IMG/VR virus record: IMGVR_UViG_3300014964_000592
Location: 1-64,000 of that record
Origin: an uncultured virus (IMG/VR IMGVR_UViG_3300014964_000592)
Lineage: Duplodnaviria; Heunggongvirae; Uroviricota; Caudoviricetes
Strand: one strand, 5' to 3'
DNA: 64,000 nt
Part shown: one piece after another, positions 6,218-58,557 of the stretch
Layout of the letters: the number at the start of each line of letters is the position of its first letter
How positions within the stretch are numbered: position 1 is the first letter of the stretch
Program-made: the position numbers and the translations under genes
The notes under the pieces: model-generated
What the model saw: the letters and a program-made list of their open reading frames with translations, nothing else
Databases searched by the model: none
Told to the model about the DNA's origin: nothing

Positions 6218-6290
6218 TACGACTTTGTGTAATAGGTCGTAAGAGAACGACACCGAAATGTTTTGCGATGCGGAAATAACAGTAATTTAG
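6218..6290 (+). promoter_or_regulatory. Putative late promoter of the tRNA operon (palindromic box plus degenerate -7)
   Basis: TACGAC-N12-GTCGTA at 6218-6241; TAATTTAG at 6283-6290. Confidence 0.6.
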
Positions 6291-6303
6291 CATCGTAAAA
6301 CAT

Positions 6304-6376
6304 CGCGGGTTGGAGCAGTTGGAAGCTCGCCAGTTTAACTTGCTGGAGGTCGTCGGTTCGAGTCCGACACCCGCTA
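6304..6376 (+). tRNA. Initiator (fMet)-like tRNA with AAC (Val) anticodon
   Basis: Cloverleaf: acceptor CGCGGGT/ACCCGCT with C1xU72 mismatch; D stem GAGC/GCTC (A11:U24); anticodon stem CCAGT/GCTGG with loop TT-AAC-TT (AAC at 6337-6339); T arm GTCGG-TTCGAGT-CCGAC; discriminator A73; CCA not encoded. Confidence 0.9.
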
Positions 6377-6404: not shown

Positions 6405-6776
6405 ATGAAAAAGTTAACCCTACAAATTGACAAAAAGTGCTTTCAGGCAATTCTGAAAGGCGAGCAGAAAGTCGAGCATCGGAACGTGTATCCCAATAAC
6501 GCCAAGAAGTATGTCATCGAAGAAGACAAGACTGATGAAAAGGGCGAAGCCATCACGGTTGTAACACCGGTTCACTACGATGCCCTCACCCTTATCAATG
6601 GTCGCCGCAAGGATGCGCCCCGTCTGACCGTGGAGGTCGTATCGGCTGAATTTGTCGTACTGACCGACGAAGACGGCAATGATTTGACCTTTGAAGAGAA
6701 TGGCGAAGTGTACTATGTTTGTCAGGTATGGTACACCCTCGGAAAGGTTCTTGAAACCGCCAACATCAACGAATAA
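6405..6776 (+). CDS. ASCH/PUA-like domain protein
   Basis: LTLQIDKKCFQAILKGEQKVEHR resembles the ASCH G-x-K-x-x-E-x-R motif. Confidence 0.65.
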   Translation: MKKLTLQIDKKCFQAILKGEQKVEHRNVYPNNAKKYVIEEDKTDEKGEAITVVTPVHYDALTLINGRRKDAPRLTVEVVSAEFVVLTDEDGNDLTFEENGEVYYVCQVWYTLGKVLETANINE

Positions 6777-6803
6777 TCATTAACCCTTTAACACTATAAG
6801 TGA

Positions 6804-7004
6804 GTTAGACGTAGAATTGATAACAACTATGGCCCCCGTCGGAACATGAACGGTGCCGGTGCCGGTGGCCGACTCGTAGCCCGTCGCACCCCTGCGGGCG
6901 TAGTTGCTGGTCGTAGCCAGCTCGGAAATCGTGAACAGCGTCGCGCTGACCTCCGCGCAGCCTTTGCTGACCAAATCCGCGCCGCTGGTGGAACAACCGG
7001 CTAA
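6804..7004 (+). CDS. Small Arg/Gly-rich protein with putative GTT start (66 aa)
   Basis: An in-frame TGA immediately precedes GTT. Translation: VRRRIDNNYGPRRNMNGAGAGGRLVARRTPAGVVAGRSQLGNREQRRADLRAAFADQIRAAGGTTG. An internal ATG exists at codon 15. Confidence 0.7.
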   Translation, partial: VRRRIDNNYGPRRNMNGAGAGGRLVARRTPAGVVAGRSQLGNREQRRADLRAAFADQIRAAGGTTG

Positions 7005-7014
7005 ACCCTAAATC

Positions 7015-7800
7015 ATGGCAACGCAGAATGTAAACAAGTACGCAGAAACCATGTCAATAGTTCGGCGTATCCGTCAACAGACGGATACTGCCGTTTTATA
7101 TTATTCAGCCGGCGGAAAGGACGGCATCGCTTTGCTTGATATGTTAGCCCCGGTTTTCAAAAAGGTTATCTGCTATTACATGTGGCTCGTGCCGGGTCTT
7201 GACCATGTGAAGCCCTATCTGCAATGGGCGGTACGGAAATACCCCAACGTTGAGGTTCGCCAGATTCAGCACTATCAGCGCGACTATTACGACCGCTTCG
7301 GATTCTTTCAGGATGGCGAGGGCGACCCAAGCATCAAGCCCCGAAAGGTAGGCGAGCTTGAGGAGGAGGTCAGACAGGAAACCGGCATCAAATGGGCGTT
7401 CAGCGGAATGAAAGGCGTTGACGGCTACATGAAGCGTATGCGCCTTTTGACTTTCAAGAAGCGCAACGGCACATACATGACAGACAAAGGAATGGTTTAC
7501 CCCCTTGCCGTCTGGACGAACAAGGAGGTGCTTCGCTATATCGAAATGCGGAATCTTATCAAGCCCTTTGTCTATAACCCCAAAGATGTAAGTCAGGGCT
7601 TTGGCATCGACTTGCGCTCCTTGCTTGTGCTTCGGAAACGTTTCCCCCGCGACTACGAGCGCACCATCCGCGAATTTCCCTTTTGCGAAAAACTCATCTT
7701 CGACTATGAAAACGGCATACTGCCATACGGTCAGGAGAAAGAGGTCATGGAAATAATCAAGCGCATAGAAACCGAATCAGAAGAATCAGACGAAGTATGA
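7015..7800 (+). CDS. PAPS-reductase-like / PP-loop family protein
   Basis: YSAGGKDGIALLDML (PP-loop-like) and YPLAVWTNKEVLRYI motifs. Confidence 0.8.
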   Translation: MATQNVNKYAETMSIVRRIRQQTDTAVLYYSAGGKDGIALLDMLAPVFKKVICYYMWLVPGLDHVKPYLQWAVRKYPNVEVRQIQHYQRDYYDRFGFFQDGEGDPSIKPRKVGELEEEVRQETGIKWAFSGMKGVDGYMKRMRLLTFKKRNGTYMTDKGMVYPLAVWTNKEVLRYIEMRNLIKPFVYNPKDVSQGFGIDLRSLLVLRKRFPRDYERTIREFPFCEKLIFDYENGILPYGQEKEVMEIIKRIETESEESDEV

Positions 7801-8681
7801 AGCCGAACAAAATCAAACAGGCAGAACAGCGCACCGTCAAGCGAAGCGAAATCAACTTTGCCTCCTACAATCCACGTACCATCAGTGACGAGGCGCGAAA
7901 AAAGCTCAAGAAAAACTTACAGACCGTCGGCCTACTGGGTGGCGTAGTATGGAACATACGCTCCGGCAATCTTGTATCGGGTCATCAGAAAGTCAGCATC
8001 ATGGATGCCGTGAACCGCTACGATGCGGAAACGGGCGCAAACGATTACGAATTTCGTGTTGAGGTCGTTGACTTCGACGATAAGACGGAAAAAGAGCAGA
8101 ACCTTTTTATGAACAACCGAGCCGTGCAGGGTACATACGACGATGACATGCTGCGCGAGCTTCTTCAAGAAATAGACTATACCAACGCCGGCTTCGACGA
8201 TACCGATATGCAGCTCCTCGGTCTTGGCGATTTCGGCGACTATGATATGGGCGATATGTTCGGCGACGATGGCGGCGATGCCACGGATGGCAACGATGCT
8301 GACGAGCCGGGCGAACCCACAGAAAACAAAGACTGGTCAAAGGGCGATGTTGTTGGCGAGCGCGAAGACCTTGCAATCCACGATGAAATGACAAAGGAAA
8401 GCGGCGAGAATCACAAGCTCGACCGCAGCGCGGATTTCTATCAGGATAGCGAAGCCAACCAGATAGCCCGCCACAACGAAGTGCAGAAAATCAAAGACCG
8501 CATCGCAAGTCAGAACGACGTGAACAAGGACGGCGGCATGTTGTCTTATGTAGTCATCAGTTTCAAGACTCCGAGCGAAAAGGTGCGCTTCATGGAAGAC
8601 TACGGCTTCGACCCTATGGCGAAATACATCAACGGCGAAGAATTTGTAAACAAATTGGAATTTGGCGATGATGAAAATTAA
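7797..8681 (+). CDS. ParB/Srx-like N-terminal domain protein
   Basis: SYNPRTI...LKKNLQTVGLLGGVVWN...LVSGHQKV; acidic middle region. Confidence 0.8.
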   Translation: MKPNKIKQAEQRTVKRSEINFASYNPRTISDEARKKLKKNLQTVGLLGGVVWNIRSGNLVSGHQKVSIMDAVNRYDAETGANDYEFRVEVVDFDDKTEKEQNLFMNNRAVQGTYDDDMLRELLQEIDYTNAGFDDTDMQLLGLGDFGDYDMGDMFGDDGGDATDGNDADEPGEPTENKDWSKGDVVGEREDLAIHDEMTKESGENHKLDRSADFYQDSEANQIARHNEVQKIKDRIASQNDVNKDGGMLSYVVISFKTPSEKVRFMEDYGFDPMAKYINGEEFVNKLEFGDDEN

Positions 8682-8773: not shown

Positions 8774-9229
8774 ATGAACTACCGATTTTTAAGCAGCATA
8801 ACCGACGCGGAGGTTGCGGATTTTCGCAACAGGCTCGCGGCTGAACTGGCGACACGCATGACCGGCGACGGCAAGCGTGTTATCAGTGACGAAGCCATCG
8901 GTCAGGAGGTCAATCTGAATATCTCCACGGAAGATGTGAAGAAATATCTGCAAAGCAACGACGCGGAGCATTATGACTATGCGCAACTTGCAGACGTTAT
9001 CGCGGCCAAGTATCGCACATTCAGCAGTGAAGACATCGAAGCCACGCGCAAGGCGATGGTCGATAAATTCATGGAGCTGGCTGACGAGTATGGCTGGGAA
9101 AAAGAACAGGCACGGCGCGACGCAGAAAAGGAGTTTTACGACAATCTTTCTGACGGAACTATCATCGAACTTCTGCGCAACGGCGAGTCTATCACGGATT
9201 ACGTTGAATATGTAAGTATTTACGACTGA
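8774..9229 (+). CDS. Hypothetical protein
   Basis: ATG at 8774 follows its own TAACTTTG promoter at about 8737. Confidence 0.65.
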   Translation: MNYRFLSSITDAEVADFRNRLAAELATRMTGDGKRVISDEAIGQEVNLNISTEDVKKYLQSNDAEHYDYAQLADVIAAKYRTFSSEDIEATRKAMVDKFMELADEYGWEKEQARRDAEKEFYDNLSDGTIIELLRNGESITDYVEYVSIYD

Positions 9230-9235
9230 TAGCGA

Positions 9236-9922
9236 GTTAAAAAGCCACGTAAGACAGATTATAACGCGAGAGTCACAAAGGCACTCAAGGGAAAGGGCGT
9301 ACCCCACCTTGAAGAGCCGATGTACCGCGTATCCGCGTCGGCTTTTACAAAGGCTATACGACGCGGCAAGGCATCGCAAGGCAGGAACGGCTGGATGGTT
9401 GACCTGCATAGCAAGAGCGAATACAAGCGGATGCGATGCTTTCTTACCCCGGACGGAAAGACGGGCGTAGCAATCAAGCGCGATGGAGATGTAGTGTCTG
9501 TATTCTCCACAAGCGGAAAACGAGGAGCAATGGCAAAAATCATACCGTTTGCGGTCGCTAATGGCGGTCGCAAGCTGGATTGTTATGCTTTCTCGGATGG
9601 TCGCAGTTCACTTCACAACATGTACGGAAGATTCGGTGCAAAGGCTCGCGGCAAAATGACCTTTGACCCGCAATATAATCCGGTTTTCCAACGCACGGCG
9701 CAGGCTAATCCCGGTATGCGCAGACCCTCTCATGTCGTGGCGATGACGCTGCCGAGCAGTCTTGCCGGCGTTATGCGGGCGTACAATGCGGATAGGAAGA
9801 TTGACCTTGGGCGCGTAAGGTCGTATGACGATTACGAAAAGATGATGGATGACCGAAACGCGCATCTTGCATTACGCGGAAAGTCAAGTGGTGTCAGAGG
9901 CGCACTTGGCGGCGGTAAATAA
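9236..9922 (+). CDS. Basic hypothetical protein with putative GTT start (228 aa)
   Basis: Sequence reads TGA TAG CGA GTT AAA AAG CCA... The GTT is 28 codons upstream of, and in frame with, the ATG at 9320 and lies 7 nt after the previous stop. Confidence 0.7.
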   Translation, partial: VKKPRKTDYNARVTKALKGKGVPHLEEPMYRVSASAFTKAIRRGKASQGRNGWMVDLHSKSEYKRMRCFLTPDGKTGVAIKRDGDVVSVFSTSGKRGAMAKIIPFAVANGGRKLDCYAFSDGRSSLHNMYGRFGAKARGKMTFDPQYNPVFQRTAQANPGMRRPSHVVAMTLPSSLAGVMRAYNADRKIDLGRVRSYDDYEKMMDDRNAHLALRGKSSGVRGALGGGK

Positions 9923-22667: not shown

Positions 22668-23951
22668 TCATTGTTGTTTGATTTCAGCAGTCACGCCGTT
22701 AGTGTCGGTCACGTCTGCCGGGTTAATCGTTTTTGCGGTATCGGGATTTTCAGCAGCCACCGACAATCCTAAATCGCAGAAGCCCTTGCAAGCTCCGCGA
22801 TAGCCGTTGAAAAATTCAGTGGCGGTCATGCGTCGCTTGTTCGGCATCTGCAATTCAAGTACGGAAAGAAGATTGTCGCCACAGGCGATGTATAGCTTTC
22901 GGTCTTGCCAGAATAGCTCGCCGGGCGCATGGTGGCCACGCGGTATGTCGGTCTTTTCCGTTCTGAAAATCTTGACGCTCATGGCCTGCTTTCCAAGCAT
23001 GGCCAGTGAAGTCCAAGCTGATGGGATTGGAGTAAGTGCGCGTATGAAGTCATAGACGTAATCGGCGGGCTTGAGCCACGGAATGATGCAGTCCTTGCGA
23101 TGTAGCTTTGGCGCGTAGCATGGCTGGATGAAGTCACAGATAAGCTCCGACTGAGGAATGGGGTTGCATGAATGGGCTATGCGCTGGATTGCATCGTCTA
23201 TCATTTCCGCGCCGGCAATGCGTAGCTTGATGTGAACGTCTTCCGCGTTATCATCTTCATCAATGCCGATGGCAAGATTGTTTATGATGCCGCCGGTGTC
23301 GATTTTGTCTTCAAGCATGAACGTTGTCACGCCGGTCATGGCATTACCATCCTTGATTGCGGATGCGATGGTGGAAGCACCGCGATACATGGGCAGCATA
23401 GATGAGTGGAGGTTGATTGTACCCCACGACGGAATGGTGTATAGCGCACGTGGCAGTATTCTGAACTCCACTACTACGCCGAGCGTCGCATGAAGATTGT
23501 GGATGTGCCGCAGAAATCTATTAGAGTCAAGTTTCCGTGGTTGAAAAACAAGGATGCCCATAGATTCGGCATAAACCTTGACCGCAGATGGCCGCAGTTT
23601 CTTGCCACGCCCGCACGGTTTATCTTCCATAGTTACGACTGCCGCGACATCATATCCGTTTTCAACAAGCATTTTTAGCGTGGGAAGCGCAAACTGCCCA
23701 TTGCCGAAGAATATGATGCGTATTCCCTTGCGTGATACAGGCTTGTCAAAATCACGTTCCGGGTATGAAACAATATCAGTTTCGTCAACAATTACATAAC
23801 CGCCGGATTTCTTCAATCGCAGAAAGTAAGAGCCATCATCTTTTGGGTATAAGATTTTGGCTTCCGTAAAAATACCGCCCCCATCATTACCGTGCAGGAG
23901 TCTGCTTGGAATTTGGACTGTCTGCCCGACGCGATAAAGAGGTGTTTTCAT
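22668..23951 (-). CDS. fmt: Methionyl-tRNA formyltransferase homologue with an extra N-terminal domain
   Basis: IRIIFFGNGQFA, VVTMEDKPCGRGKKL, INLHSSMLPMYRGASTI, IDTGGII, YAPKL and IRALTPIPSAW, plus the Fmt C-terminal domain (LELQMPNKRRMTATEFFNG). ATG at 23951 overlaps the upstream HTH stop (ATGA). Confidence 0.92.
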   Translation of the reverse strand: MKTPLYRVGQTVQIPSRLLHGNDGGGIFTEAKILYPKDDGSYFLRLKKSGGYVIVDETDIVSYPERDFDKPVSRKGIRIIFFGNGQFALPTLKMLVENGYDVAAVVTMEDKPCGRGKKLRPSAVKVYAESMGILVFQPRKLDSNRFLRHIHNLHATLGVVVEFRILPRALYTIPSWGTINLHSSMLPMYRGASTIASAIKDGNAMTGVTTFMLEDKIDTGGIINNLAIGIDEDDNAEDVHIKLRIAGAEMIDDAIQRIAHSCNPIPQSELICDFIQPCYAPKLHRKDCIIPWLKPADYVYDFIRALTPIPSAWTSLAMLGKQAMSVKIFRTEKTDIPRGHHAPGELFWQDRKLYIACGDNLLSVLELQMPNKRRMTATEFFNGYRGACKGFCDLGLSVAAENPDTAKTINPADVTDTNGVTAEIKQQ

Positions 23952-29717: not shown

Positions 29718-30149
29718 ATGAAGAATGACATCTCACCCAACAAGGAAACGGTTGTCTTCGGCAATGATTCCGCAGTAATCCGTAAGTACATCAGCGGTAT
29801 CCCCGGTGGTCGTACTCTGGACTGCACCGGTTTCAAAGAAGACACCGTGCTGGCCGGCCACGTCATCATCAAGAAGACTGACGGCAAGTATGCCCCCATG
29901 CCCGTTAAGGCAGCAGTTCCGGCATCAGGCGAAACAGCCGCAACGCCCGCGAGCTACGACTCGCTTCCCGCCGGCGCAACCTACGTGGGCATCCTTTATC
30001 GCTCCATCAGCGTAAAGAACCCCGCAGCTTCCATCATGTACGATGGCGTCGTAAACGACAAATTAGTTCCCTATCCCATGACAAGCATCTTGACCGCGTT
30101 CAAGACCGCTTGCCCTCACATCATTTTTGAACAGGACGAGGAGGCCTAA
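29718..30149 (+). CDS. Probable head decoration protein
   Basis: GIPGGRTLD...VLAGHVII; lies between scaffold and capsid genes. Confidence 0.65.
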   Translation: MKNDISPNKETVVFGNDSAVIRKYISGIPGGRTLDCTGFKEDTVLAGHVIIKKTDGKYAPMPVKAAVPASGETAATPASYDSLPAGATYVGILYRSISVKNPAASIMYDGVVNDKLVPYPMTSILTAFKTACPHIIFEQDEEA

Positions 30150-30157
30150 GAATCAGA

Positions 30158-31246
30158 GTTAATCAGTCATTTTATTTCGATTACGCAAAGCGTTTCTTCC
30201 CCGGCCTTGTGCTGGCTATCGTAGAACGCCTCAACGAGAAGCGTGCCAATTCCGCTCTCACCTACCTTTACAAAGAAAAACTTCGCCCGCAGTTTTCGCT
30301 TGATGGCCGCTGGGCTTCCATCCTTGCGGAATACACCCGCGTAGCCGCCGACGTTGTGGCACTTGACTCCGAGCTTCCGCTCAAGAGCCGTGACACACTG
30401 GAGGTTGCTTCCGGCACAATTCCCAAAATCGGTATGAAGCTCTACCTGACCGAAAAGCAGATGAAAGACGTTGACTCGATGATTGCGCAGGGTGTTCCCC
30501 TCCAGACCATCATCGACAACATCTTCGCTGATACCCCCCGTTGCATCGAGGGCATCTGGGAGCGCATCGAAGACATCTTCCTTTCGGAGCTTTCGTCGGG
30601 TGTCGGCGTTTCCGAGCGCAACAACGGCACAGGTGTGCGCATCAACATGAATTTCTATGACGACAACCAGTTCGCTGTTTCCAAACTTTGGAGCAACACC
30701 GACGCAACTCCGCTTGACGACATCCAGAAACTTGTTGACAAGTCCATTACCGACGCAAACACCATCATCGACGCATACGCTGACGACACCGCCCTCGGTC
30801 TTCTCTACAAGAACAAGCAGGTGCGTTCACAGTTCGCGTTCAATCAGGGCATCGCCATGACCGGTTCGACCACCGTGCCGGTGCTTGACTTTGCGAAGCT
30901 CCAGCAGATTTTCCTCACCAAGTGGAACATCAATCTGCACCGCGTCGCCCGCCGTGTCAAGACCGAGCTTAACGGCGAAAAGAAAAACCATACCCCGTGG
31001 AAGACCGGAACAATTTCCTTTGTCTGCGATGAAGAGCTTGGCTCACTCGTATGGACTAACGTTGCCGAGGCTTCGCGCCCCGTTGAAGGCGTTGTCTATC
31101 AGACTGCCGACCAGTACATCCTCGCAAAGAAATATTCCAAGACCGACCCCCTCCGCGAGTTTACCGCTTCCGAGGCTATGGTTGTGCCTGTGTTGAACAA
31201 CGTTGACCGCATCTACACGCTCGACACTCAGACAGTTCAGGAATGA
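30158..31246 (+). CDS. Major capsid protein with putative GTT start (362 aa)
   Basis: AADVVALDSELPLKSR, GTIPKIG, ATPLDDI and TDPLREFT motifs. The frame extends 17 codons upstream of the GTG at 30209 to GTT-AAT-CAG (VNQSFYFDYAKRFFPGLV), with no ATG/GTG/TTG back to the in-frame TGA at 30128. Confidence 0.88.
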   Translation, partial: VNQSFYFDYAKRFFPGLVLAIVERLNEKRANSALTYLYKEKLRPQFSLDGRWASILAEYTRVAADVVALDSELPLKSRDTLEVASGTIPKIGMKLYLTEKQMKDVDSMIAQGVPLQTIIDNIFADTPRCIEGIWERIEDIFLSELSSGVGVSERNNGTGVRINMNFYDDNQFAVSKLWSNTDATPLDDIQKLVDKSITDANTIIDAYADDTALGLLYKNKQVRSQFAFNQGIAMTGSTTVPVLDFAKLQQIFLTKWNINLHRVARRVKTELNGEKKNHTPWKTGTISFVCDEELGSLVWTNVAEASRPVEGVVYQTADQYILAKKYSKTDPLREFTASEAMVVPVLNNVDRIYTLDTQTVQE

Positions 31247-32550: not shown

Positions 32551-32942
32551 TAACCACAACCGACGCAGCCAACATTCTTTACACCGCCTGCAAAATCTTT
32601 GGGATGCCCGTCTATCAAGCCGGGAACATTCCGGAGGGTAAGGTAGGCAAGGATGGCCGTGTGGTCATCCACGTCAAAGAACACACCCCCGGCTCCACTT
32701 GGAAAAAGGGATTTGTCGAAATCAATCTTTTTGCCGCTGACACGCCGAAAGGAAAGTCTGACCTAATCCGTCTTAATGAGCTTGAGCGAATGGCTGTCAA
32801 AGACCTCAAGGGCATGGGATGGCATGACGGTACGGCATACACCTTTTCCGTAGCTTCTACGATACCGATGGAAAACGCCGATTTGAAAGCCCACTACATC
32901 AATGCCAAAGTGCTTTTCAAGGTATTAAACACAATGGAATAA
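32547..32942 (+). CDS. Probable tail terminator protein
   Basis: Position immediately before the tail tube gene. Confidence 0.55.
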   Translation: MITTTDAANILYTACKIFGMPVYQAGNIPEGKVGKDGRVVIHVKEHTPGSTWKKGFVEINLFAADTPKGKSDLIRLNELERMAVKDLKGMGWHDGTAYTFSVASTIPMENADLKAHYINAKVLFKVLNTME

Positions 32943-32967
32943 TTAACCCCTTAACACCCATAAACGA

Positions 32968-33516
32968 GTTACAAACAACGCACCCAAAGTTTGCGCGGTC
33001 GGCATCAAAAAGCTGTACTATGCCGACACCAGCAAGGTAACGGCAGACCTTACCGGCGCATTGCTCGCCGCACTGCTTGCCGACGAAGCCACCAAGGAAG
33101 TCAAGAACATCCATCAGGACACGTGGACTATCGAAGAGAGCGAAGCCTCGCAGGACGGCTATCGCAATCAGCTCACCGGTTCTATCTACCGCATGGGAAC
33201 GAAGACCATGGGCGACGTAACTTTCAACTGGACTATCGGTCAGTACGACTATCCTACCAAGGCTGAGTTCCTCGGTGGTGTCGCTACCGACAAGTCGTGG
33301 AAGCGTCCCCGCGGTGTCGTCGAAATCCACAAAGTCCTCATCGCACTCACCGAAGACAATCAGTATTGCGTTCTGCCCTACGCCAACGTAGCCGGTCGTG
33401 AAGCCAACACCGACGGCGCAGTAGGTCTGGGTATCGTCGGAACGGCAATGGAGCCTACCGACCCCAACATCGCATCCGAATACTGGTTCGACTCTTCCGA
33501 GGTAGTGACCGCGTAA
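32968..33516 (+). CDS. Major tail (tube) protein with putative GTT start (182 aa)
   Basis: GTT ACA AAC...VTNNAPKVCAVGIKKLYYAD...VKNIHQDTWTIEE...FNWTIGQYD. In-frame TAA at 32944 and no canonical start before the TTG at 33061. Confidence 0.82.
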   Translation, partial: VTNNAPKVCAVGIKKLYYADTSKVTADLTGALLAALLADEATKEVKNIHQDTWTIEESEASQDGYRNQLTGSIYRMGTKTMGDVTFNWTIGQYDYPTKAEFLGGVATDKSWKRPRGVVEIHKVLIALTEDNQYCVLPYANVAGREANTDGAVGLGIVGTAMEPTDPNIASEYWFDSSEVVTA

Positions 33517-33603
33517 GGAAAACCGATTCATCTAAAAGTTTGTGAAAGTGAAATGTGGTGCGCCAATGACGTACCCCATTCTTTTCAATAAATCCAAAAT
33601 GAT

Positions 33604-50771: not shown

Positions 50772-50845
50772 TACGACAATGAAATATAAGTCGTAATTAA
50801 GCGAGGTCAGTTTAAGCCGGCCTCGCTTTCGTTTTATGACCTTTG
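50772..50845 (+). promoter_or_regulatory. Putative late promoter of the tail tip/fibre operon
   Basis: TACGAC-N12-GTCGTA (50772-50795), 42 nt, GACCTTTG (50838-50845). Confidence 0.65.
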
Positions 50846-50851
50846 CGTATT

Positions 50852-53800
50852 ATGCTGACCATCTACGATAACAAAGGCGTAAAACGCTTTGAAACGCCAA
50901 TTAACAAAGGCTCTAAACGTGTCTTCAAGTTAATGGCAGACGACTATGTGACGCTAATTTTCAGCGTCGCAAAACCTATCTATTTCAAGTTAGGCGATTA
51001 TTGCGACATACCCGGATTTGGTAGGTTTGAACTTGTATCGCCTTATAAGCCGGTCTACAATCGTGCAACCAATGGCTATGACTACGAGTTAAGGCTGGAT
51101 GCGCAACACATGAAATGGCGCAATAAAATCATGCGCTATCTGCCCAAGACCGGAGGTGCTGAATGTGCGTGGTCACTGACTGCGACCGCCGACGTGCATT
51201 TGGCACAGGTGCTTGAGAATATTGAAGCTCTGGTAACTGAAACGCTTATGAATGGCGATAAGGTTATCAATCAGCGATATTTATACAATGGCGCGACGAA
51301 ATGGGCCACGTTGATAGATGGCAGCGTGGAGGCATCGGCAAAGACAATCAGCTACGACAGCACAAACATAATCGACGCACTTACGGCAATCGCGGAAGCA
51401 TTTGAATGTGAGTGGTGGCTGAATGGCAATATCATCTGCCTCGGAAAATGCGAAGAAACCAACGAATACGTTGACCTTGAAATCGGCATAAACGTAGCCG
51501 AGATGTCAAGAAGTGACTCGTCGGAAGACTATGTGACGCGCATCTTGGCGTTTGGCAGTGAGCGCAACATATCGCCCAGATACCGCAAAGACCTCCTTTT
51601 TGATGTCAAGGAAATAGCCAATGGCGGCAATCGTGTCAGCGATACAAGCCGACCGCTGGAGGCTGAATGGTTTGCATCTTCTATGGTGGAAACATCGTCA
51701 AGCGACAATACCCTCAAGCGCGTCAAGGGCATCACGATTGAAATCATCGACTCCACCGGTGCGGTCACGACCACGCTGAATGGCGTTATTTACAACCCGG
51801 ACTATAAGAGCGGAATATCGGATAAGAACTGGCTTCAACTGCCGAATGGCGCAGTCATGCAAGCCGGTCAGCGTTTCCGCATCAAGAATATCATTGAAAG
51901 CAAGGTCAAATCAAGCTATTTTTCCAGCCGTTACTCCGCTTATGATGATATTTCCAATGTGGTGCGCAACGGCATCGTGACAAGCCGATTGATGCTCCCT
52001 GTGTCGCACGGAACGCCCTATATCGACTATAAGCCGGGGCTGTCCATGGAAGAAGGCGTGGAAGATGTCGTTGTATTTGAAGATGTCTATCCACGTGCAG
52101 TTTGCGCCATCACAAAGATTGATACCGTGCAGCGCAAAGAAACCATCCAGAACGATGACGGAACGACAACCGAAACGACCTTTACCGCTTACAAAATCAA
52201 GGATGATTTCTTCACGTCTGCGCATCCCTTTGAAAATGATTACATCGTACCCAATGAAACGCTCAAGATAACATTCCAAGACGGAAAGCGATATAAAGAG
52301 GGCGATGTCATCCCGGATGGTAAGAAAGTGGGCGACCTTATCAATCCTGAAAGCGGAAAGCTGAACGGATGGACTTTTGAGGTGCAATTCACCAAAGACA
52401 AGGATGGCTCGGCTATCTGGGAAATAGTCAGGGATAACGAGGTCTTCATACCGAATGAAATCCTATGCCCTGAAATCGGCGACCAGTTTGTGCTGACCGG
52501 CTTTGATATATCGGTTGTCGATGACCTTTATGTGGAAGAAGCGGAAAAGGAGCTGCTTGACAAGGCGACCAAATACCTTGAAAAGCTAAACACCGACCCA
52601 TCTACATACGATTGCACAATGATGCCCGACGTAATGAAAGCCGGGCTGACCCTCGGACTCGGAAAGCGCGTCAATCTAATCAACGATGCGTTCATTGAAA
52701 CCACCACCGACGCAAACGGAAGAAAGTGGGGTCGCAAGAGCCGTGTCATTGGCTATGAAATTCCCCTTGATATTCCGTATGACAATCCCGTCTACACCAT
52801 TGGTGAAAAGGCGGCATATTCCCGCTTTGGTGAAATTGAAGACAAAATCGACGCACTGAAATTCTCCATGACCGCAGGCAAGAATTACCTTGGCGGTTAC
52901 TATTCCGATGGGTCTTCATCATCCAATGGCGGCATCTACGTCATCAAGCAGACCGACATCACGCCGGCAAGCGAAATCAACGTATTCTCGGCACTGCGCA
53001 GCTACCTTGAATTTACATCCAAAAAGGCAAAGGAAATCATCAATTACCTTTGGACTTTTATGCAGGGCATCCGCGTAGGCAACTATGTGATGAATAACGA
53101 TGGCGCGAAGATTGACCCCAATGGCGATGCGGAATTTAACGATGTCGTAATCCGCAAGGGTGCATCGGTAGGTACTGACCTTAATGTTGGCGGTGATGCT
53201 ACTGTTGGGAACGAGCTAACTGTCAAAAAAGGCGTGACCATCGGCGACTACTATCAGCCGGGTGCGTATGGTGGTCGCATCTGGATTGATGGCCTTGGAA
53301 AAGTACACATTGAAACCGACTATCTTGATGCAAGGGAGAAGATTGAAGCCAAAGAGGTGGAAATTCAGGAAGAAACCCACGTCGGTGGCTGTCAGATTAT
53401 ATCCCCGGCGGCTATGCGCTGCTCAAGGGTAATTCCAATATACAATGATGCCAACAGCGTTGTTGCTTATAAATGTTTCTTCACTGCGGAAGATGAAACC
53501 GGCACTCAGATTTTCAACCAGTTTGAGGTCGGTGACTTGGCTAAATGCGAAACATTCAACCTGACCAAGCAGCCAAACGGAAAGATGGGCAACCATTATT
53601 ATTGGCGCAAGGTTACGGAGGTCGGCTACGTCAACAAGGGCGATGCTGATTACGATGACGATTTCGGTATGGAGGGTTATATTGTTGTTTCCAACTTGCC
53701 GAAAGAAAAAGATACGGGCAGCGATGCTCCTTTGGCCGGCGACCGCATTATTACCGTCGGCAACGATGACCCGGCAAAGGCAGACCGCTCCAATCTTATC

Positions 53801-56800
53801 ATCCTTGCAAGCTACGGAAGCGGAAGCCCCTACATCTATCAGTATAAGGGCATCAACACCTTTGCGCTGACGAAAGACAATCTCAAGGTGGCAATATCAC
53901 CCAACGGCAACCTTTTCACCGGTAAATTCGTCATTGAGAACGGAACGGAAGAAGTTGATGTCGTTGACTACATTGAAAACAACATCTATCTTGAGGCATA
54001 TCAGCTTGTACTTTCCAACGAGATGGCCGGTGTGCCTTGCGATGTCAACGGCAATATTATCGGCGACCTGCCAAGTTCAAAGATTACAGTCTTTAAGGGC
54101 AAGACCGTTGAAACCGACTGGACTCTTTCATCGGAAGCCATCGGCTGTAAGGCATCCATCGTTTCTGACCATGTATATCTATCGGAATTGACCGACAAGA
54201 ACGCCACGGTCACGATTACAGCCACAAAGAAAGACTGCCCCACGCTGACAAAGGTAATGACCATCTGCAAGCTCAAAGAGGGCGAAGCGGGCGTTTCCGG
54301 CGACCACGCAGTGCAGTTTGAGATTGAGCCTGACAAGCCCATGGTGCTTGCCGACATGGATGGCGTGTGCGACCCCGCCAACCTTGGGTGTAAGGTCTAC
54401 ATGGTTATCGGCAATCAAAACCGCGTTGAGGTTCCACTTGCCAACACTGCGGCCATCACGACCTACAAGGCAGGCGATAAATTGCTTTTCTTCAACGGCA
54501 GATTGTTTGTCAGCCGACCCGTTGAAGTTGATGTTCCCACCGACCTTGTTTTGCGTTACGTCATCGTCAACCAAGACTATGTTACCGATGAAACAACCGG
54601 CAAGGTGTCGCCAGTTATAACGTCGGAAACAGAGCATATCTATACCGGCAAGGCTATTGAGATGTCGGCAAGGATGAAACACATCATCTTCAAACTATAT
54701 CGTGGAAACACACTTATCGACATGCAGACCGTTGTTGTGACTACCGACGCATCTGCGATGAAAGTGGTGTATGATACGCGCTTTGAGGTCAATGAAAAGG
54801 AAATCTTTGCCCATGCAAGCCGAATATCGCAGACGGAAAAGGATATTGCCGAGTTGCGCATTACGGCAGATGGCATTTCCGCGAACATCGGCAAACAGAT
54901 GGGCATCATTCAGGACATCATCAATGGCGCAGGGCGAAATCTTCTCTTGAAGACCAACTCGGCAGGTGTATGGAAATACGCATCCGACAGTATGTCTAAC
55001 GCATCGACCATAGGTCTTCTGAACAATCCCAACAACGCCACCAATTTCTATGTAGCACCACGCACCGACTCCACATACGAGATATTCTACTATCCCATTC
55101 GCCCGGAACTGATAAAACAGGGCGAAAAGTACACGTTCACGGTCAACATCAAGAATAAGACCAATTCGGTGTCTGACGTTCTTGAGTTTTACGCAGTGAT
55201 AGCAAACACCAACTCGTCTGTACAACTGACGAAAACGGCATACTTTGACGTGGTTGTAGGAAATGGCGAGTACCGATTGACCGTTGAACTTGAAGCCAGC
55301 GCAACGGGAACAAAGACCGGTACTCAAGTGCTGATTTTGGGTATTGTGCCGGCAAGAATAAACACATGGACTGCCATCTCGCTTTGGCATCCCAAACTTG
55401 AAAAGGGGTCAACAGCCACCGCATATTCCGAAGCACCGGAAGACCGCGAGGATTACCTTTATGCCGAGCTGAACACCAAAATCGACGTTACGGCAGAGGG
55501 GTTGCGGTCAGAGGTTACAAAGAAGATTGGTGAGTCGGAAGATAGGATTAACGCTGAACATAAATCCCTTATCCAGCAATCAGCCGATGAAATTCTTGCA
55601 CAGGTGGAAGCATGGGATGACGAACTTGGCGCAAGTATATCGGAAATACGTCAGACCGCAAACAGCATCAGCCTTAAAGTGCAAGAGCTTGCCGGCTACG
55701 AAAACCTTGTGACTGGAAATAGAACTGGAACTGGTTGGCTTTTACAAGACTATACCACTGGTGAATTTGTAGACACCACCCCAGACGAGAATGGTCAATA
55801 CATAATAGCCGTTGGTGATACGTCGGAAAGAAGATTGCGTACATCTCTTTTCAATCTTCAAGCAAATACCAAATACACCCTTTCGTTTGTGCGTGGTAGT
55901 ATAAATGCTAACACGAGTGGCTTTGCCATTGAAATAAAATATGGGGATGCAGGAACTATTTTGCATAGCAAAACATTCCTTGCTAATGCAATGGTGAATG
56001 AAATCCGCGAAACGCTGACTTTCACAACTGGAGATAGTGTGGTAGAGAACGCTTTCATCGACTTTATCCATCGTGGAAATCGCCCCAACGTGCAAATGTC
56101 AACCATGATGCGCATATCGCAAGTAATTCTTGAGATAGGCGAAATCGCACACCCTTATGTGGAAGACGCGACAGGTTTGTTGGCGACAGGTATTGATATT
56201 ATCAATAGGAAGATTGTATTCACATCCGACAATATCATATTCCGAAACAACAAGGGCGAGCAGTCTATGTTCATAGACAAGGATGGTCGTATCCTTGCAA
56301 AATTTATCAATGTAGAAGAGTTGCACGTAGACCATCTTATCGCCGGTGATGAAGATGGCGAATGTGTGGAAATAGACCCCGTTCAGAAAGCTATCTACAT
56401 CTATGACATTAACCATGAGCTTTGCACGACCATAAACGGTGAAGCGCATCCCGGTGGTATCAATGAAATTTACAAGGAAGTTACAGGTGGCTCAATAGAC
56501 CTCTATACAGCTATAAATGGCAACCAAATATCAAATGGCGGTTTTAGCTTTTACGGAGATAATTCAGGCATAGAAAAATCGCAGAATTATAAGGTATATT
56601 CCAAATCATGGCCGGCAGATGCCGCACCTATTGTTGAATTTAGTCAAGGCCGTATCTATTGCCACGCATACGCCCCCGGTTTTTACAAGCAAAGGAAAGA
56701 TAATTTATCATACGGTGCTGATACAATCGTCAGCATGGAAGATATGAGGCCATATTTCGCATCGGTCTATGTATCGGTTTGTCTGGAGGTTGCGGATGAT

Positions 56801-58111: not shown

Positions 58112-58285
58112 ATGCTTTGGATTGGAAATAAAGAGGTCGGTCAGCTTTGGATAGGCCAAAAGCAAGTGCAAGCCCTTTATGTCGGAGCTAAACTTGTATG
58201 GGAAGCCGTCAGCAGTTGCTTCGGTAGCGGCTTTTGGCGAGAAAAGCTACCATGGAAAGGGAAAGACGCATGGAAAAATTTTTAA
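58112..58285 (+). CDS. Small tail-associated protein (57 aa)
   Basis: MLWIGNKEVGQLWIGQKQVQALYVGAKLVWEAVSSCFGSGFWREKLPWKGKDAWKNF. Confidence 0.7.
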   Translation: MLWIGNKEVGQLWIGQKQVQALYVGAKLVWEAVSSCFGSGFWREKLPWKGKDAWKNF

Positions 58286-58305
58286 CCCCAAATACTGTAT
58301 AACGA

Positions 58306-58557
58306 GTTAAGAAAATCACAAAATGGATTAAGGAAAGCAATCGCTACAAGCATCTCGCAGGGGGCATCGCAATAGGCATGGTCAGCAATACGCCTTATTG
58401 CGCTGCCCTTTGCGGCTGTGGCGTTGCATCCGCACTTGAGCTAAAAGATAAGCTCTGGGGCGGTGAATGGGATTGGATAGACTGGTCGCTGACCGTCGCC
58501 GGTGTCGCCATCGGCTATTCCATCCGAGTAGGCATCACATTACTGATTAAATCCTGA
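58306..58557 (+). CDS. Small membrane protein with putative GTT start (83 aa)
   Basis: Sequence reads TAA CGA GTT AAG AAA...: VKKITKWIKESNRYKHLAGGIAIGM...ELKDKLWGGEWDWIDWSLTVAG. It fills the gap between flanking genes; the first ATG is codon 25. Confidence 0.72.
   Translation, partial: VKKITKWIKESNRYKHLAGGIAIGMVSNTPYCAALCGCGVASALELKDKLWGGEWDWIDWSLTVAGVAIGYSIRVGITLLIKS

What the first reader, a model, noticed from the sequence alone, without database searches (positions are those of the whole stretch)
30150..30210. Major capsid gene has no canonical start at its natural 5' end
Seen: after the decoration-gene stop (30149) the sequence reads GAATCAGA-GTT-AAT-CAG-TCA-TTT-TAT-TTC, giving (V)NQSFYFDYAKRFFPGL before the first GTG. 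No ATG/GTG/TTG occurs back to the in-frame TGA at 30128; a rare ATC codon is at 30152. The extension resembles my recollection of N-termini of related Bacteroidales capsids (M-x-x-S-x-Y-F-x-Y...FFP-x-L). Gene callers will truncate it. ATG to GTT requires two substitutions, so sequencing error or decay is unlikely.
Basis: partly seen in the sequence, partly recalled or inferred. Interest (0 to 1): 0.75.

Follow-up and report, generated by a model that had tools for sequence, protein, structure and literature searches.

The report
Phage initiator tRNA reads GTT starts
The capsid gene really does begin at a GTT codon, and the phage carries its own initiator-type tRNA with the matching anticodon plus its own formyltransferase, which looks like a natural private system for starting translation.

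Summary
The major capsid gene is open from GTT 30158, which aligns exactly with Met1 of full-length homologues, and there is no ATG/GTG/TTG before GTG 30209. It is not decay. In 26 related loci the codon is GTT (13 distinct sequences) or GTA (1), always in a GA-GTW-A context and usually directly after an in-frame TGA.

The window's only tRNA (6304-6376) resembles a bacterial initiator tRNA (C1xU72 mismatch, A11:U24, nearest E. coli genes are the tandem initiator cluster) but carries anticodon AAC, the complement of GUU. The GTA-start relative carries the same kind of tRNA with anticodon UAC.

Ten of 10 sufficiently long records with a GTT/GTA capsid start hold the cognate tRNA. None of 18 ATG-start relatives holds an initiator-type tRNA. 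A phage methionyl-tRNA formyltransferase homologue (22668-23951, minus strand) co-occurs in 6/6 versus 0/10 records.

At least four more genes in the window start GA-GTT-A. In 77 other viral loci, a small gene downstream of such tRNAs starts with the codon matching the anticodon (GAC-GTC 48, AAC-GTT 10, UAC-GTA 2; none non-cognate, 2 wobble).

An engineered E. coli i-tRNA(AAC) does the same thing. I found no natural case in print. No protein-level data exist.

The parts
30158..31246 (+). Major capsid protein gene (362 codons plus stop), starting at GTT 30158
   Evidence: Pfam Phage_cap_E and phrog_29. GTT aligns with Met1 of the 361-364 aa homologues.
30156..30161 (+). Start context GA-GTT-A. 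It is complementary to anticodon-loop positions U38 U37 C36 A35 A34 U33 of the phage tRNA.
   Evidence: GA at -2/-1 and A at +4 are invariant in 14 distinct sequences from 26 loci. No variant in 4 DNA runs. GA precedes only 4 of 68 ATG starts in the window.
6304..6376 (+). Initiator-type tRNA with anticodon AAC (reads GUU). It has a C1xU72 mismatch, A11:U24, discriminator A73, anticodon stem A29-U41/G30-C40/U31.G39 and loop UUAACUU.
   Evidence: ARAGORN; Rfam tRNA 48.6 bits. The nearest E. coli genes are three tandem tRNA-Met genes. Comparison with the host initiator tRNA is; family cloverleaf covariation is.
22668..23951 (-). Phage methionyl-tRNA formyltransferase homologue (427 aa) with an extra N-terminal domain of about 75 aa
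   Evidence: Pfam Formyl_trans_N + Formyl_trans_C. NCBIfam TIGR00460 scores 217.4 bits against a cut-off of 201.5. Aligns to E. coli FMT 1fmt/2fmt over residues 3-304. ATG start defined by orthologues.
32968..33516 (+). 182-codon virion-module gene (phrog_14600) starting GA-GTT-A. Its first canonical start is codon 32.
   Evidence: phrog_14600 E 4.6e-64, profile positions 4-176 of 178 aligned to residues 8-180. Orthologues in the clade start GA-GTT, while L010, L144 and the ATG-clade relatives start ATG.
58306..58557 (+). 83-codon gene (phrog_38535) starting GA-GTT-A. Its first canonical start is codon 25.
   Evidence: phrog_38535 E 4.6e-32, profile positions 2-77 of 82 aligned to residues 2-77. 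Orthologues in G001 and G003 also start GA-GTT-A.
9236..9922 (+). 228-codon candidate gene starting GA-GTT-A one codon after a stop. Its first canonical start is codon 29. It fills the gap before the GH108 lysin gene.
   Evidence: Weak phrog_2563 match. 98% identical orthologues have the same start, which is too close to be informative.
6804..7004 (+). 66-codon small basic protein starting TGA-GTT, 427 nt after the tRNA. It belongs to a family whose start codon follows the tRNA anticodon across phages.
6405..6776 (+). 123-aa gene between the tRNA and the small basic ORF (phrog_625). It has an ATG start and is part of the conserved three-gene module.
   Evidence: The Atlas gives only a weak lead to an ASCH domain, carried by 27% of the members of the third-ranked cluster.
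29718..30149 (+). Upstream gene (143 aa, phrog_38330). Its frame relation to the capsid gene is not conserved.

Best explanation
This Muribaculaceae prophage runs a private translation-initiation channel. It encodes a tRNA derived from a bacterial initiator tRNA whose anticodon is AAC instead of CAU.

Inferred steps: the tRNA is charged with valine by the host ValRS, because the anticodon is the main identity element. It is then formylated, most likely by the phage's own Fmt homologue. It binds the ribosomal P site on GUU codons that sit in a GA-GUU-A context. There the usual three base pairs are probably extended by U37:A(-1) and U38.G(-2).

The major capsid gene, a tail-module gene and at least one to three further genes use such GTT starts. 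Their products would therefore begin with (formyl-)valine and would be made efficiently only when the phage tRNA is present.

Shown here: the codon/anticodon match and its covariation, the initiator features of the tRNA, the co-occurrence of tRNA, Fmt and GTT/GTA starts, and homology of the N-terminal extensions.

Inferred only: charging, formylation, P-site use, the extended pairing, and the purpose. The purpose may be gating or insulating virion-gene expression.
For: (1) In 26 non-ATG loci the codon aligned with Met1 is GTT (13 distinct sequences) or GTA (1). Eleven of the 14 have an in-frame TGA directly before it. The extension is conserved at the protein level, with 9, 9 and 16 variable sites at codon positions 1, 2 and 3. 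L136, L338 and L355 were left out of the count because they contain N.

(2) The window's only tRNA has anticodon AAC. Its nearest E. coli relatives are three tandem tRNA-Met genes, with a median of 4 places per genome. The acceptor, D and T arms match the host and E. coli initiators, and the C1xY72 mismatch and A11:U24 are kept.

(3) Covariation: the GTA-start relative (G025) has the same kind of tRNA with anticodon UAC and compensatory stem changes.

(4) Co-occurrence: 10 of 10 records long enough (G000, G001, G003-G005, G025, G032-G035) hold the cognate tRNA. None of 18 ATG-clade records has the initiator-type D arm. Fisher p = 7.6e-8. Eight fragmentary records with no tRNA were left out.

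(5) fmt is present in 6/6 records versus 0/10 ATG-clade records that are at least 93% complete (p = 1.2e-4).

(6) GA-GTT-A lies at ORF 5' ends in 5 of 13 occurrences in the window, 4/15 in G001 and 4/14 in G005, but 0/48 in the ATG-clade genome G012. PHROG profiles cover the regions upstream of the first canonical start for 32968 and 58306.

(7) In 77 usable viral loci, the small ORF 380-620 nt after the tRNA starts with the cognate codon: GAC tRNA gives GTC 48 and GTT 2; AAC gives GTT 10; UAC gives GTA 2. All 62 are preceded by GA, which the search did not impose. Fisher p = 4.3e-6 on distinct peptides.

(8) Engineered E. coli i-tRNA(AAC) raised initiation significantly only at GUU (8-10 fold), giving Val or fVal N-termini (10.1101/2021.05.25.445580, abstract and Results part 1). 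It is improved by overexpressing ValRS and Fmt (10.64898/2025.12.21.695813, abstract only).

(9) Pairing between tRNA position 37 and mRNA position -1 has been demonstrated in E. coli (PMC10018350, passages).
Against: There is no protein, ribosome-profiling or tRNA-charging data, and no RNA run was available.

The tRNA lacks two classical initiator marks. Only G30:C40 of the three consecutive G:C pairs is kept. In E. coli that pair can suffice, but at a fitness cost (PMC5389676, passages). Position 37 is U, which is unusual for any tRNA.

The four extra GTT-start genes were found with the GA-GTT-A motif, so their context is partly circular. Only two of them have independent profile support.

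In related tRNA(AAC) phages of another lineage (2 loci; L421 shown), the small ORF has an ATG upstream.

Phages with the GAC-type tRNA lack fmt (0/21) and have C30:G40. Fmt is therefore not a universal part of the system.

The records are related to one another, so the counts overstate the number of independent events. I see at least two AAC/GAC switches plus the UAC type.
Confidence: 0.85

Rival explanations
1. Translation starts at GUU, inefficiently, with the host fMet-tRNA. The phage tRNA(AAC) is an ordinary elongator that supplements GUU decoding.
For: In E. coli without a mutant tRNA, a GUU-start reporter gave N-terminal Met only (10.1101/2021.05.25.445580, Results part 1).
Against: GUU differs from AUG at two positions, which makes it a poor choice for the most abundant virion protein. 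The tRNA has a 1:72 mismatch, A11:U24 and U37, which are not elongator features. Val codon usage in the window shows no GTT excess: GTT 276, GTC 324, GTA 257, GTG 270. This reading does not explain the GTA/UAC and GTC/GAC covariation, the co-occurring fmt, or the invariant GA context.
Confidence: 0.05
2. The capsid protein starts at GTG 30209 (345 aa, as gene callers say). The upstream 17 codons are an untranslated remnant.
For: GTG 30209 is the first canonical start. The Pfam profile offset (profile position 43 at residue 60) would roughly fit.
Against: The extension keeps S4, Y6, Y9, F14, P15 and L17 across relatives down to 67% identity, and also in the ATG clade. In relatives the first canonical start falls at many different places, giving 23 called lengths from 308 to 357 aa. 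Some of these delete conserved core residues.
Confidence: 0.04
3. The N-terminus is supplied by recoding, either a frameshift, hop or read-through from the upstream gene, or RNA editing of GUU to AUG.
For: The capsid frame is -1 relative to the upstream gene in the window. Editing could not be tested because no RNA run was listed.
Against: The frame relation is not conserved; it is in frame in the L002 type. An in-frame TGA directly precedes the GTT in 11 of 14 distinct sequences. No slippery site is visible between 30131 and 30157. The same GA-GTT-A start occurs at genes with quite different upstream neighbours. Editing would need two changes per site and would not explain the tRNA.
Confidence: 0.03
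4. Sequencing or assembly error, or a decaying prophage gene.
For: The record is a provirus with 74% estimated completeness.
Against: The same codon appears in independent assemblies from viral, genome and metagenome collections, including two cultured isolates, and in 4 runs from 3 studies. The rest of the gene is intact and conserved.
Confidence: 0.01

Closest known systems
Engineered orthogonal initiator tRNA i-tRNA(AAC) in E. coli (Hutvagner et al. 2021 preprint; Scopelliti et al. 2025 preprint)
   Same: An initiator tRNA body with anticodon AAC. Initiation was significantly raised only at GUU. N-terminal Val or fVal. Fmt (and ValRS) supply limits efficiency.
   Different: The engineered tRNA is a laboratory point mutant of metY that keeps the three G:C pairs and A37. 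The phage version is natural. It has a remodelled anticodon arm (A-U/G-C/U.G and U37 U38), a fixed GA-GUU-A mRNA context, its own Fmt with an extra domain, and natural target genes.
Phage-encoded initiator tRNA-fMet with anticodon CAU (for example Erwinia phage phiEa21-4 and relatives)
   Same: These are the closest phage tRNA genes by sequence, at 83% over 71 nt. They share the initiator-type acceptor, D and T arms.
   Different: They keep CAU and read AUG, so no start-codon change is involved.
Near-cognate non-AUG initiation (GUG, UUG, AUU and others) by the normal initiator tRNA
   Same: A non-AUG start codon on a real gene.
   Different: Those codons differ from AUG at one position and need no new tRNA. 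Here the codon differs at two positions and is fully cognate to a dedicated tRNA.
Amber-initiator tRNA(CUA) systems (recalled: Varshney and RajBhandary 1990; seen only in search listings: 10.1101/524249 and 10.1101/2024.07.29.605542)
   Same: An anticodon change in an initiator tRNA redirects initiation to a non-AUG codon. One use proposed is phage containment.
   Different: These are man-made and use a stop codon.
Stop-codon recoding in phages with phage-encoded suppressor tRNAs (recalled from the literature; not searched here)
   Same: A phage-encoded tRNA changes how a codon is read in a subset of phage genes, often late or structural ones, possibly as a timing device.
   Different: That system acts on elongation and termination, whereas this one acts on initiation.

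Membership tests
Bacterial initiator tRNA | No Watson-Crick pair between positions 1 and 72 | tested here: met
   C1xU72 in the window, and C1xC72 or U72 in relatives and in the host initiator. Position 1:72 is unpaired in 31 of 31 family members.
Bacterial initiator tRNA | A11:U24 in the D stem | tested here: met
   In the wider family this feature was fixed by the search pattern, so it is informative only for the window lineage and the host.
Bacterial initiator tRNA | Three consecutive G:C pairs (29-31 with 39-41) in the anticodon stem | tested here: not met
   The window has A29-U41, G30-C40 and U31.G39. The UAC type has G-C, G-C and U.G. The middle pair G30-C40 is reported to suffice in E. 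coli (PMC5389676, passages).
Bacterial initiator tRNA | Anticodon CAU | tested here: not met
   The anticodon is AAC. This is the point of the finding.
Bacterial initiator tRNA | Formylated and used in the P site | not testable with these tools
   Supported only indirectly, by the co-occurring phage fmt.
Elongator tRNA-Val | Paired 1:72, a purine at position 37, and an elongator-type 11:24 pair (pyrimidine-purine, as recalled) | tested here: not met
   C1xU72, U37 and A11:U24. ARAGORN's label 'tRNA-Val' rests on the anticodon alone.
Methionyl-tRNA formyltransferase (TIGR00460 / PF00551 + PF02911) | Score above the curated cut-off, both domains present, and full-length alignment to solved FMT | tested here: met
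   217.4 bits against 201.5. Both Pfam domains are present. Aligns to 1fmt residues 3-304, including the GRGKK loop and the N-x-H motif region. Substrate (Val- versus Met-tRNA) was not tested. Three of the 6 orthologues score below the cut-off, at 178-193 bits.
Phage major capsid protein E family (PF03864, phrog_29) | Profile match above the cut-off | tested here: met
   Pfam 25.2 bits against 22.9; phrog_29 E 3.6e-31.

The most novel reading that the evidence does not exclude
Start-codon reassignment exists in nature. A widespread family of gut-phage initiator tRNAs carries valine anticodons (GAC, AAC, UAC) and a U37-U38 loop. These tRNAs start translation at GA-GUN sites through a pairing extended to five base pairs. 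This gives phages an orthogonal initiation channel that host ribosomes cannot use without the phage tRNA. In this Muribaculaceae lineage the channel has been extended to the capsid and tail genes and equipped with a dedicated formyltransferase, probably to gate or insulate virion production.
Probability: 0.7. Interest if true: 0.97.

Novelty: categorically new. Interest (0 to 1): 0.95.

Why it matters
All known natural start codons are read by an initiator tRNA with anticodon CAU. A natural initiator tRNA with a different anticodon, with matching start codons and its own formyltransferase, would be a new kind of departure from the standard genetic code, acting at initiation.

It has practical effects. 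Gene callers truncate or miss these genes: 58 of the 120 listed capsid clusters are called short, and several genes in this window are mis-called or lost to antisense ORFs.

It offers evolved parts for orthogonal translation, namely the tRNA, its mRNA context and the Fmt. Engineers are currently trying to build these and report the same bottlenecks.

It also suggests a translational switch for virion genes in temperate phages of a dominant mouse-gut family. Two cultured lysogens are at hand for testing: Lepagella muris NM04_E33 and Muribaculaceae Isolate-036.

Tried and rejected
- **ATC 30152 as the start:** rejected, because an in-frame TGA follows it in relatives.
- **Frameshift or hop from the upstream gene:** rejected, because the frame relation is not conserved.
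- **RNA evidence:** no RNA holder was listed. Read laying gave DNA contigs only, so editing and expression could not be tested.
- **GTC-start capsid genes in GAC-type phages:** their capsid is another family (1 weak match in 32 records). The one candidate (L271) has ATG at codon 2. Motif and context-free scans of G036, G037 and G040 gave nothing clear. Only the small ORF after the tRNA emerged.
- **fmt within 10 kb of the capsid gene in metagenome loci:** found in only 2 of 79 loci (L298, L301). In relatives the gene lies up to 14 kb away, so this is uninformative.
- **BLASTP of the window's small ORF against the positional counterpart in G025:** no similarity.
- **Atlas search with the small ORF:** scores at or below 0.81, no lead.
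- **Codon-only enrichment of GTT at ORF 5' ends without context:** too noisy.
- **Earlier findings of the scan:** none.
- **Not attempted:** structure prediction of the Fmt N-terminal domain.
- **Literature:** five searches found only engineered systems. The library holds only CC-licensed PubMed Central papers and bioRxiv, so a report in a subscription journal could have been missed.

Full report
**1. The observation**

The upstream gene (29718..30149, 143 aa, phrog_38330) ends with TAA at 30147-30149. After eight bases comes GTT at 30158, in the frame of the major capsid gene (Pfam Phage_cap_E; phrog_29, E 3.6e-31). That frame is closed by TGA at 30128-30130. It contains no ATG, GTG or TTG before GTG 30209, and no CTG/ATT/ATC/ATA in codons 2-17.

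**2. The extension is real coding sequence**

A search with the 362-residue reading gave 545 relatives, of which 120 clusters were listed.
- 62 of the 120 begin M-x-x-[ST]-[LFI]-[YF]..., in perfect register with the window's (V)NQSFYFDYAKRFFPGL.
- 58 are called shorter, with 23 different lengths from 308 to 357 aa.
- 47 of the 52 closest relatives are among the short calls.

Gene callers therefore pick whatever internal ATG/GTG/TTG comes first, across a whole clade.

I read the DNA of relatives from three collections. In 26 loci of that clade there are 14 distinct start regions. L136, L338 and L355 were left out for N.
- The codon aligned with Met1 is GTT in 13 and GTA in 1.
- GA stands at -2/-1 and A at +4 in all 14.
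- An in-frame TGA lies directly before the codon in 11 of 14.
- The frame relation to the upstream gene varies.

These facts exclude ATC 30152, a frameshift, and read-through from the upstream gene. The more distant relatives (46-62% identity) have ATG, and some of them have a strong AAGGAGG motif upstream of it. No variant occurs at 30156-30161 in contigs of four mouse-gut DNA runs from three studies, while neighbouring positions vary.

**3. The tRNA**

The window has exactly one tRNA gene, at 6304-6376 (ARAGORN: anticodon AAC; Rfam tRNA 48.6 bits). AAC is the complement of GUU.

The tRNA is not an ordinary valine tRNA.
- Its nearest E. coli relatives are tRNA-Met genes, with a median of four places per genome. 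The hit I examined is one of three tandem copies, which is the arrangement of the initiator genes.
- Acceptor stem, D arm and T arm are nearly identical to E. coli tRNA-fMet and to the initiator tRNA of the Muribaculaceae hosts.
- It has the C1xU72 (or C72) mismatch, A11:U24 and discriminator A73.
- Only the anticodon arm is remodelled: stem C-G, C-G, A-U, G-C, U.G and loop UUAACUU, with U at positions 37 and 38.

Of the three G:C pairs typical of initiators, only G30:C40 is kept. In E. coli that middle pair is reported to be the essential one (PMC5389676, passages).

**4. Covariation and co-occurrence**

The one relative whose capsid gene starts with GTA (L011, record G025) carries, as its only tRNA, the same kind of molecule with anticodon UAC. 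It has the same U-U flanks and compensatory changes in the stem.

The cognate tRNA is present in 10 of 10 records of the non-ATG clade that are long enough:
- G000, G001, G003, G004, G005 and G025;
- four bacterial genomes, including Lepagella muris NM04_E33 and Muribaculaceae Isolate-036.

Eight further records have no tRNA at all. They are fragments of 7-62 kb in which the expected site, 12-32 kb upstream, lies off the contig.

None of 18 ATG-clade records (10 of them at least 93% complete) has the initiator-type D arm. The tRNAs identified in the ARAGORN-scanned loci of five of those records (G010, G012, G020-G022) are Glu, Gln, Tyr, Thr, Lys, Arg and Leu. Fisher p = 7.6e-8. The records are related, so this overstates independence.

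**5. A phage formyltransferase**

On the minus strand at 22668-23951 lies a 427-aa protein with these properties:
- Formyl_trans_N and Formyl_trans_C domains.
- It reaches the curated cut-off of the fmt equivalog TIGR00460 (217.4 against 201.5 bits).
- It aligns over the whole length of E. coli methionyl-tRNA formyltransferase (1fmt/2fmt, residues 3-304).
- It carries an extra conserved N-terminal domain of about 75 residues and a C-terminal CKGFC motif.

Such long forms make a separate group of 47 clusters (391-434 aa), set apart from ordinary Bacteroidota Fmt of 307-342 aa.

fmt is present in 6 of 6 viral records with a GTT/GTA capsid start. It is absent from 10 of 10 near-complete ATG-clade records and from 21 of 21 records of other phages with Val-anticodon initiator-like tRNAs. 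A more distant GTT-start locus (L301) has a 35% identical copy.

**6. More GTT starts in the window**

The hexamer GA-GTT-A occurs 13 times on both strands. Five of these lie at the 5' end of an ORF of at least 60 codons. Each has at most 10 open codons upstream, no canonical start upstream, and none within the next 10 codons. The five are 6804, 9236, 30158, 32968 and 58306.

Controls:

| Test | Result |
|---|---|
| Other codons in the same GA-NNN-A context | 57 of 1581 |
| GTT in other contexts | 34 of 2009 (p = 7.7e-5 and 2.4e-6 for the two controls) |
| Relatives with the tRNA | 4/15 (G001) and 4/14 (G005) |
| ATG-clade genome G012 | 0/48 |

Independent support comes from PHROG profiles.
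- phrog_14600 (E 4.6e-64) aligns profile positions 4-176 of 178 with residues 8-180 of the 32968 reading. Its first canonical start is residue 32.
- phrog_38535 (E 4.6e-32) aligns positions 2-77 of 82 with residues 2-77 of the 58306 reading.

Orthologues of the 32968 gene start GA-GTT within the clade and ATG outside it. For 9236 and 6804 the context was part of how they were found, so they remain candidates on window evidence alone.

**7. A wider family**

A pattern for an initiator-type D arm plus an NAC anticodon found more than 110 places in the viral collection.

Across 31 aligned members and references the cloverleaf is kept. 95.1% of cells are paired, 13 pairs show compensatory changes, and no shuffle or slid control comes close. 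Position 1:72 is unpaired in all 31. The D arm and the AGGTC stretch were fixed by the pattern.

About 400-550 nt downstream of the tRNA, after a phrog_625 gene, lies a small basic protein gene of 51-68 codons. The family alignment is, and the window's copy is 6804-7004. In 77 usable loci the first GTH codon of that ORF follows the anticodon:

| tRNA anticodon | Loci | Start codon of the small ORF |
|---|---|---|
| GAC | 53 | GTC 48, GTT 2 (wobble), none 3 |
| AAC | 14 | GTT 10, none 4 |
| UAC | 4 | GTA 2, none 2 |

There is no non-cognate case, and all 62 are preceded by GA, which was not a search criterion. On distinct peptides the AAC/GAC by GTT/GTC table is 6/0 and 1/28, p = 4.3e-6. Both sub-families of the small protein contain GTT and GTC members, so the switch happened at least twice.

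One exception is the L421-type tRNA(AAC) (2 loci), where the small ORF has an ATG upstream.

**8. Mechanism**

The codon/anticodon match, the initiator body and the co-occurrence are shown above. The rest is inferred from established knowledge and from engineering work.

An E. coli initiator tRNA with its anticodon changed to AAC raises initiation 8-10 fold at GUU. No other codon was significantly changed. The products carry N-terminal Val or formyl-Val (10.1101/2021.05.25.445580, abstract and Results part 1). According to the abstract of a later preprint, efficiency rises when ValRS and Fmt are overexpressed, and a section heading names charging and formylation as the dominant bottlenecks (10.64898/2025.12.21.695813, abstract and outline only). 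The phage Fmt fits that bottleneck.

The invariant GA before the codon, together with the unusual U37-U38, fits an extended pairing. [quoted passage not shown] GA precedes only 4 of 68 ATG starts in the window, where T is the commonest base at -1.

I recall, but did not check here, the older work of Schulman and of RajBhandary on anticodon-switched initiators.

**9. Purpose**

The purpose is open. The GTT-start set includes the capsid and a tail-module protein, so the channel may couple virion synthesis to expression of the phage tRNA and Fmt. Possible roles:
- a translational late switch;
- silencing in the lysogen;
- protection of these genes from use by others;
- keeping them translatable if the host initiator tRNA is attacked.

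None of these was tested.

**10. Limits**

All the evidence is comparative. No RNA run was available, and there are no proteomic data. The tRNA fails two classical initiator criteria. The GAC-type phages lack fmt, have C30:G40, and have no identified target other than the small ORF. Five literature searches found only engineered counterparts, but the library lacks most subscription journals.

Noticed in passing
Most have the loop UU-NAC-UU and U31.G39. The GAC type has C30:G40 and no fmt. Its only identified target is the small ORF after the tRNA.
   Followed up: partly
window 6804-7004; L391-L470: A family of small basic Gly/Arg-rich proteins (51-68 aa) that always lies about 400-550 nt after the tRNA. 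It has no Pfam or PHROG match, and the Atlas holds it only from its internal Met. Its function is unknown, but it is the most conserved client of the tRNA.
   Followed up: partly
window 6775-6803, 32938-32967, 58275-58305: Three of the five GTT starts share an upstream TTAACCC motif about 21-27 nt before the codon, followed by ATAA(N)(N)GA. The capsid gene and 9236 lack it. It may be a shared leader or a translation signal.
   Followed up: no
window 6245-6303: Upstream of the tRNA lie a TTTG and, about 19 nt later, TAATTTAG. This resembles the Bacteroidota -33/-7 promoter consensus as I recall it. The pattern is conserved in relatives. An inverted repeat flanks it.
   Followed up: no
L131:1787-1861 and L123:1424-1498 (ATG-clade phages G012, G021): ARAGORN calls a tRNA with a four-base anticodon (tggt) at the place where sister phages have tRNA-Thr(tgt) or Thr(cgt). 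It may be a frameshift-suppressor-like tRNA or an insertion variant.
   Followed up: no
window 7015-8681: A PAPS-reductase-like gene (PF01507, phrog_424) and a ParB-like gene (phrog_9353) follow directly after the tRNA module. Whether either acts on the tRNA is unknown.
   Followed up: no
window 22668-23951 (residues 1-75 and the C-terminus): The phage Fmt clade has a conserved extra N-terminal domain (M-K-x-P-x-Y-R-V-G-Q ... D-G-x-Y-F-V) and a C-terminal CKGFC motif. It also has clade-specific changes in the conserved R-G-A-A-P-I stretch, which reads R-G-A-S-T-I. These may be adaptations to a Val-tRNA substrate.
   Followed up: no
L421 (IMGVR_UViG_3300006150_000009): An AAC-type tRNA of another backbone (U1xU72) whose downstream small ORF has an ATG a few codons upstream of the family's usual start. 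This is an exception, or an ancestral state.
   Followed up: partly
window 50843-57637: A 2264-aa ORF with no Pfam hit. The GA-GTT-A at 56975 is internal to it.
   Followed up: no
window 8789-9409, 32917-33531, 6780-6974 (minus strand): Long antisense ORFs overlie the GTT-start genes. A length-based gene picker chose them in place of the real plus-strand genes. Automatic annotation of such phages may therefore report spurious minus-strand genes here.
   Followed up: partly
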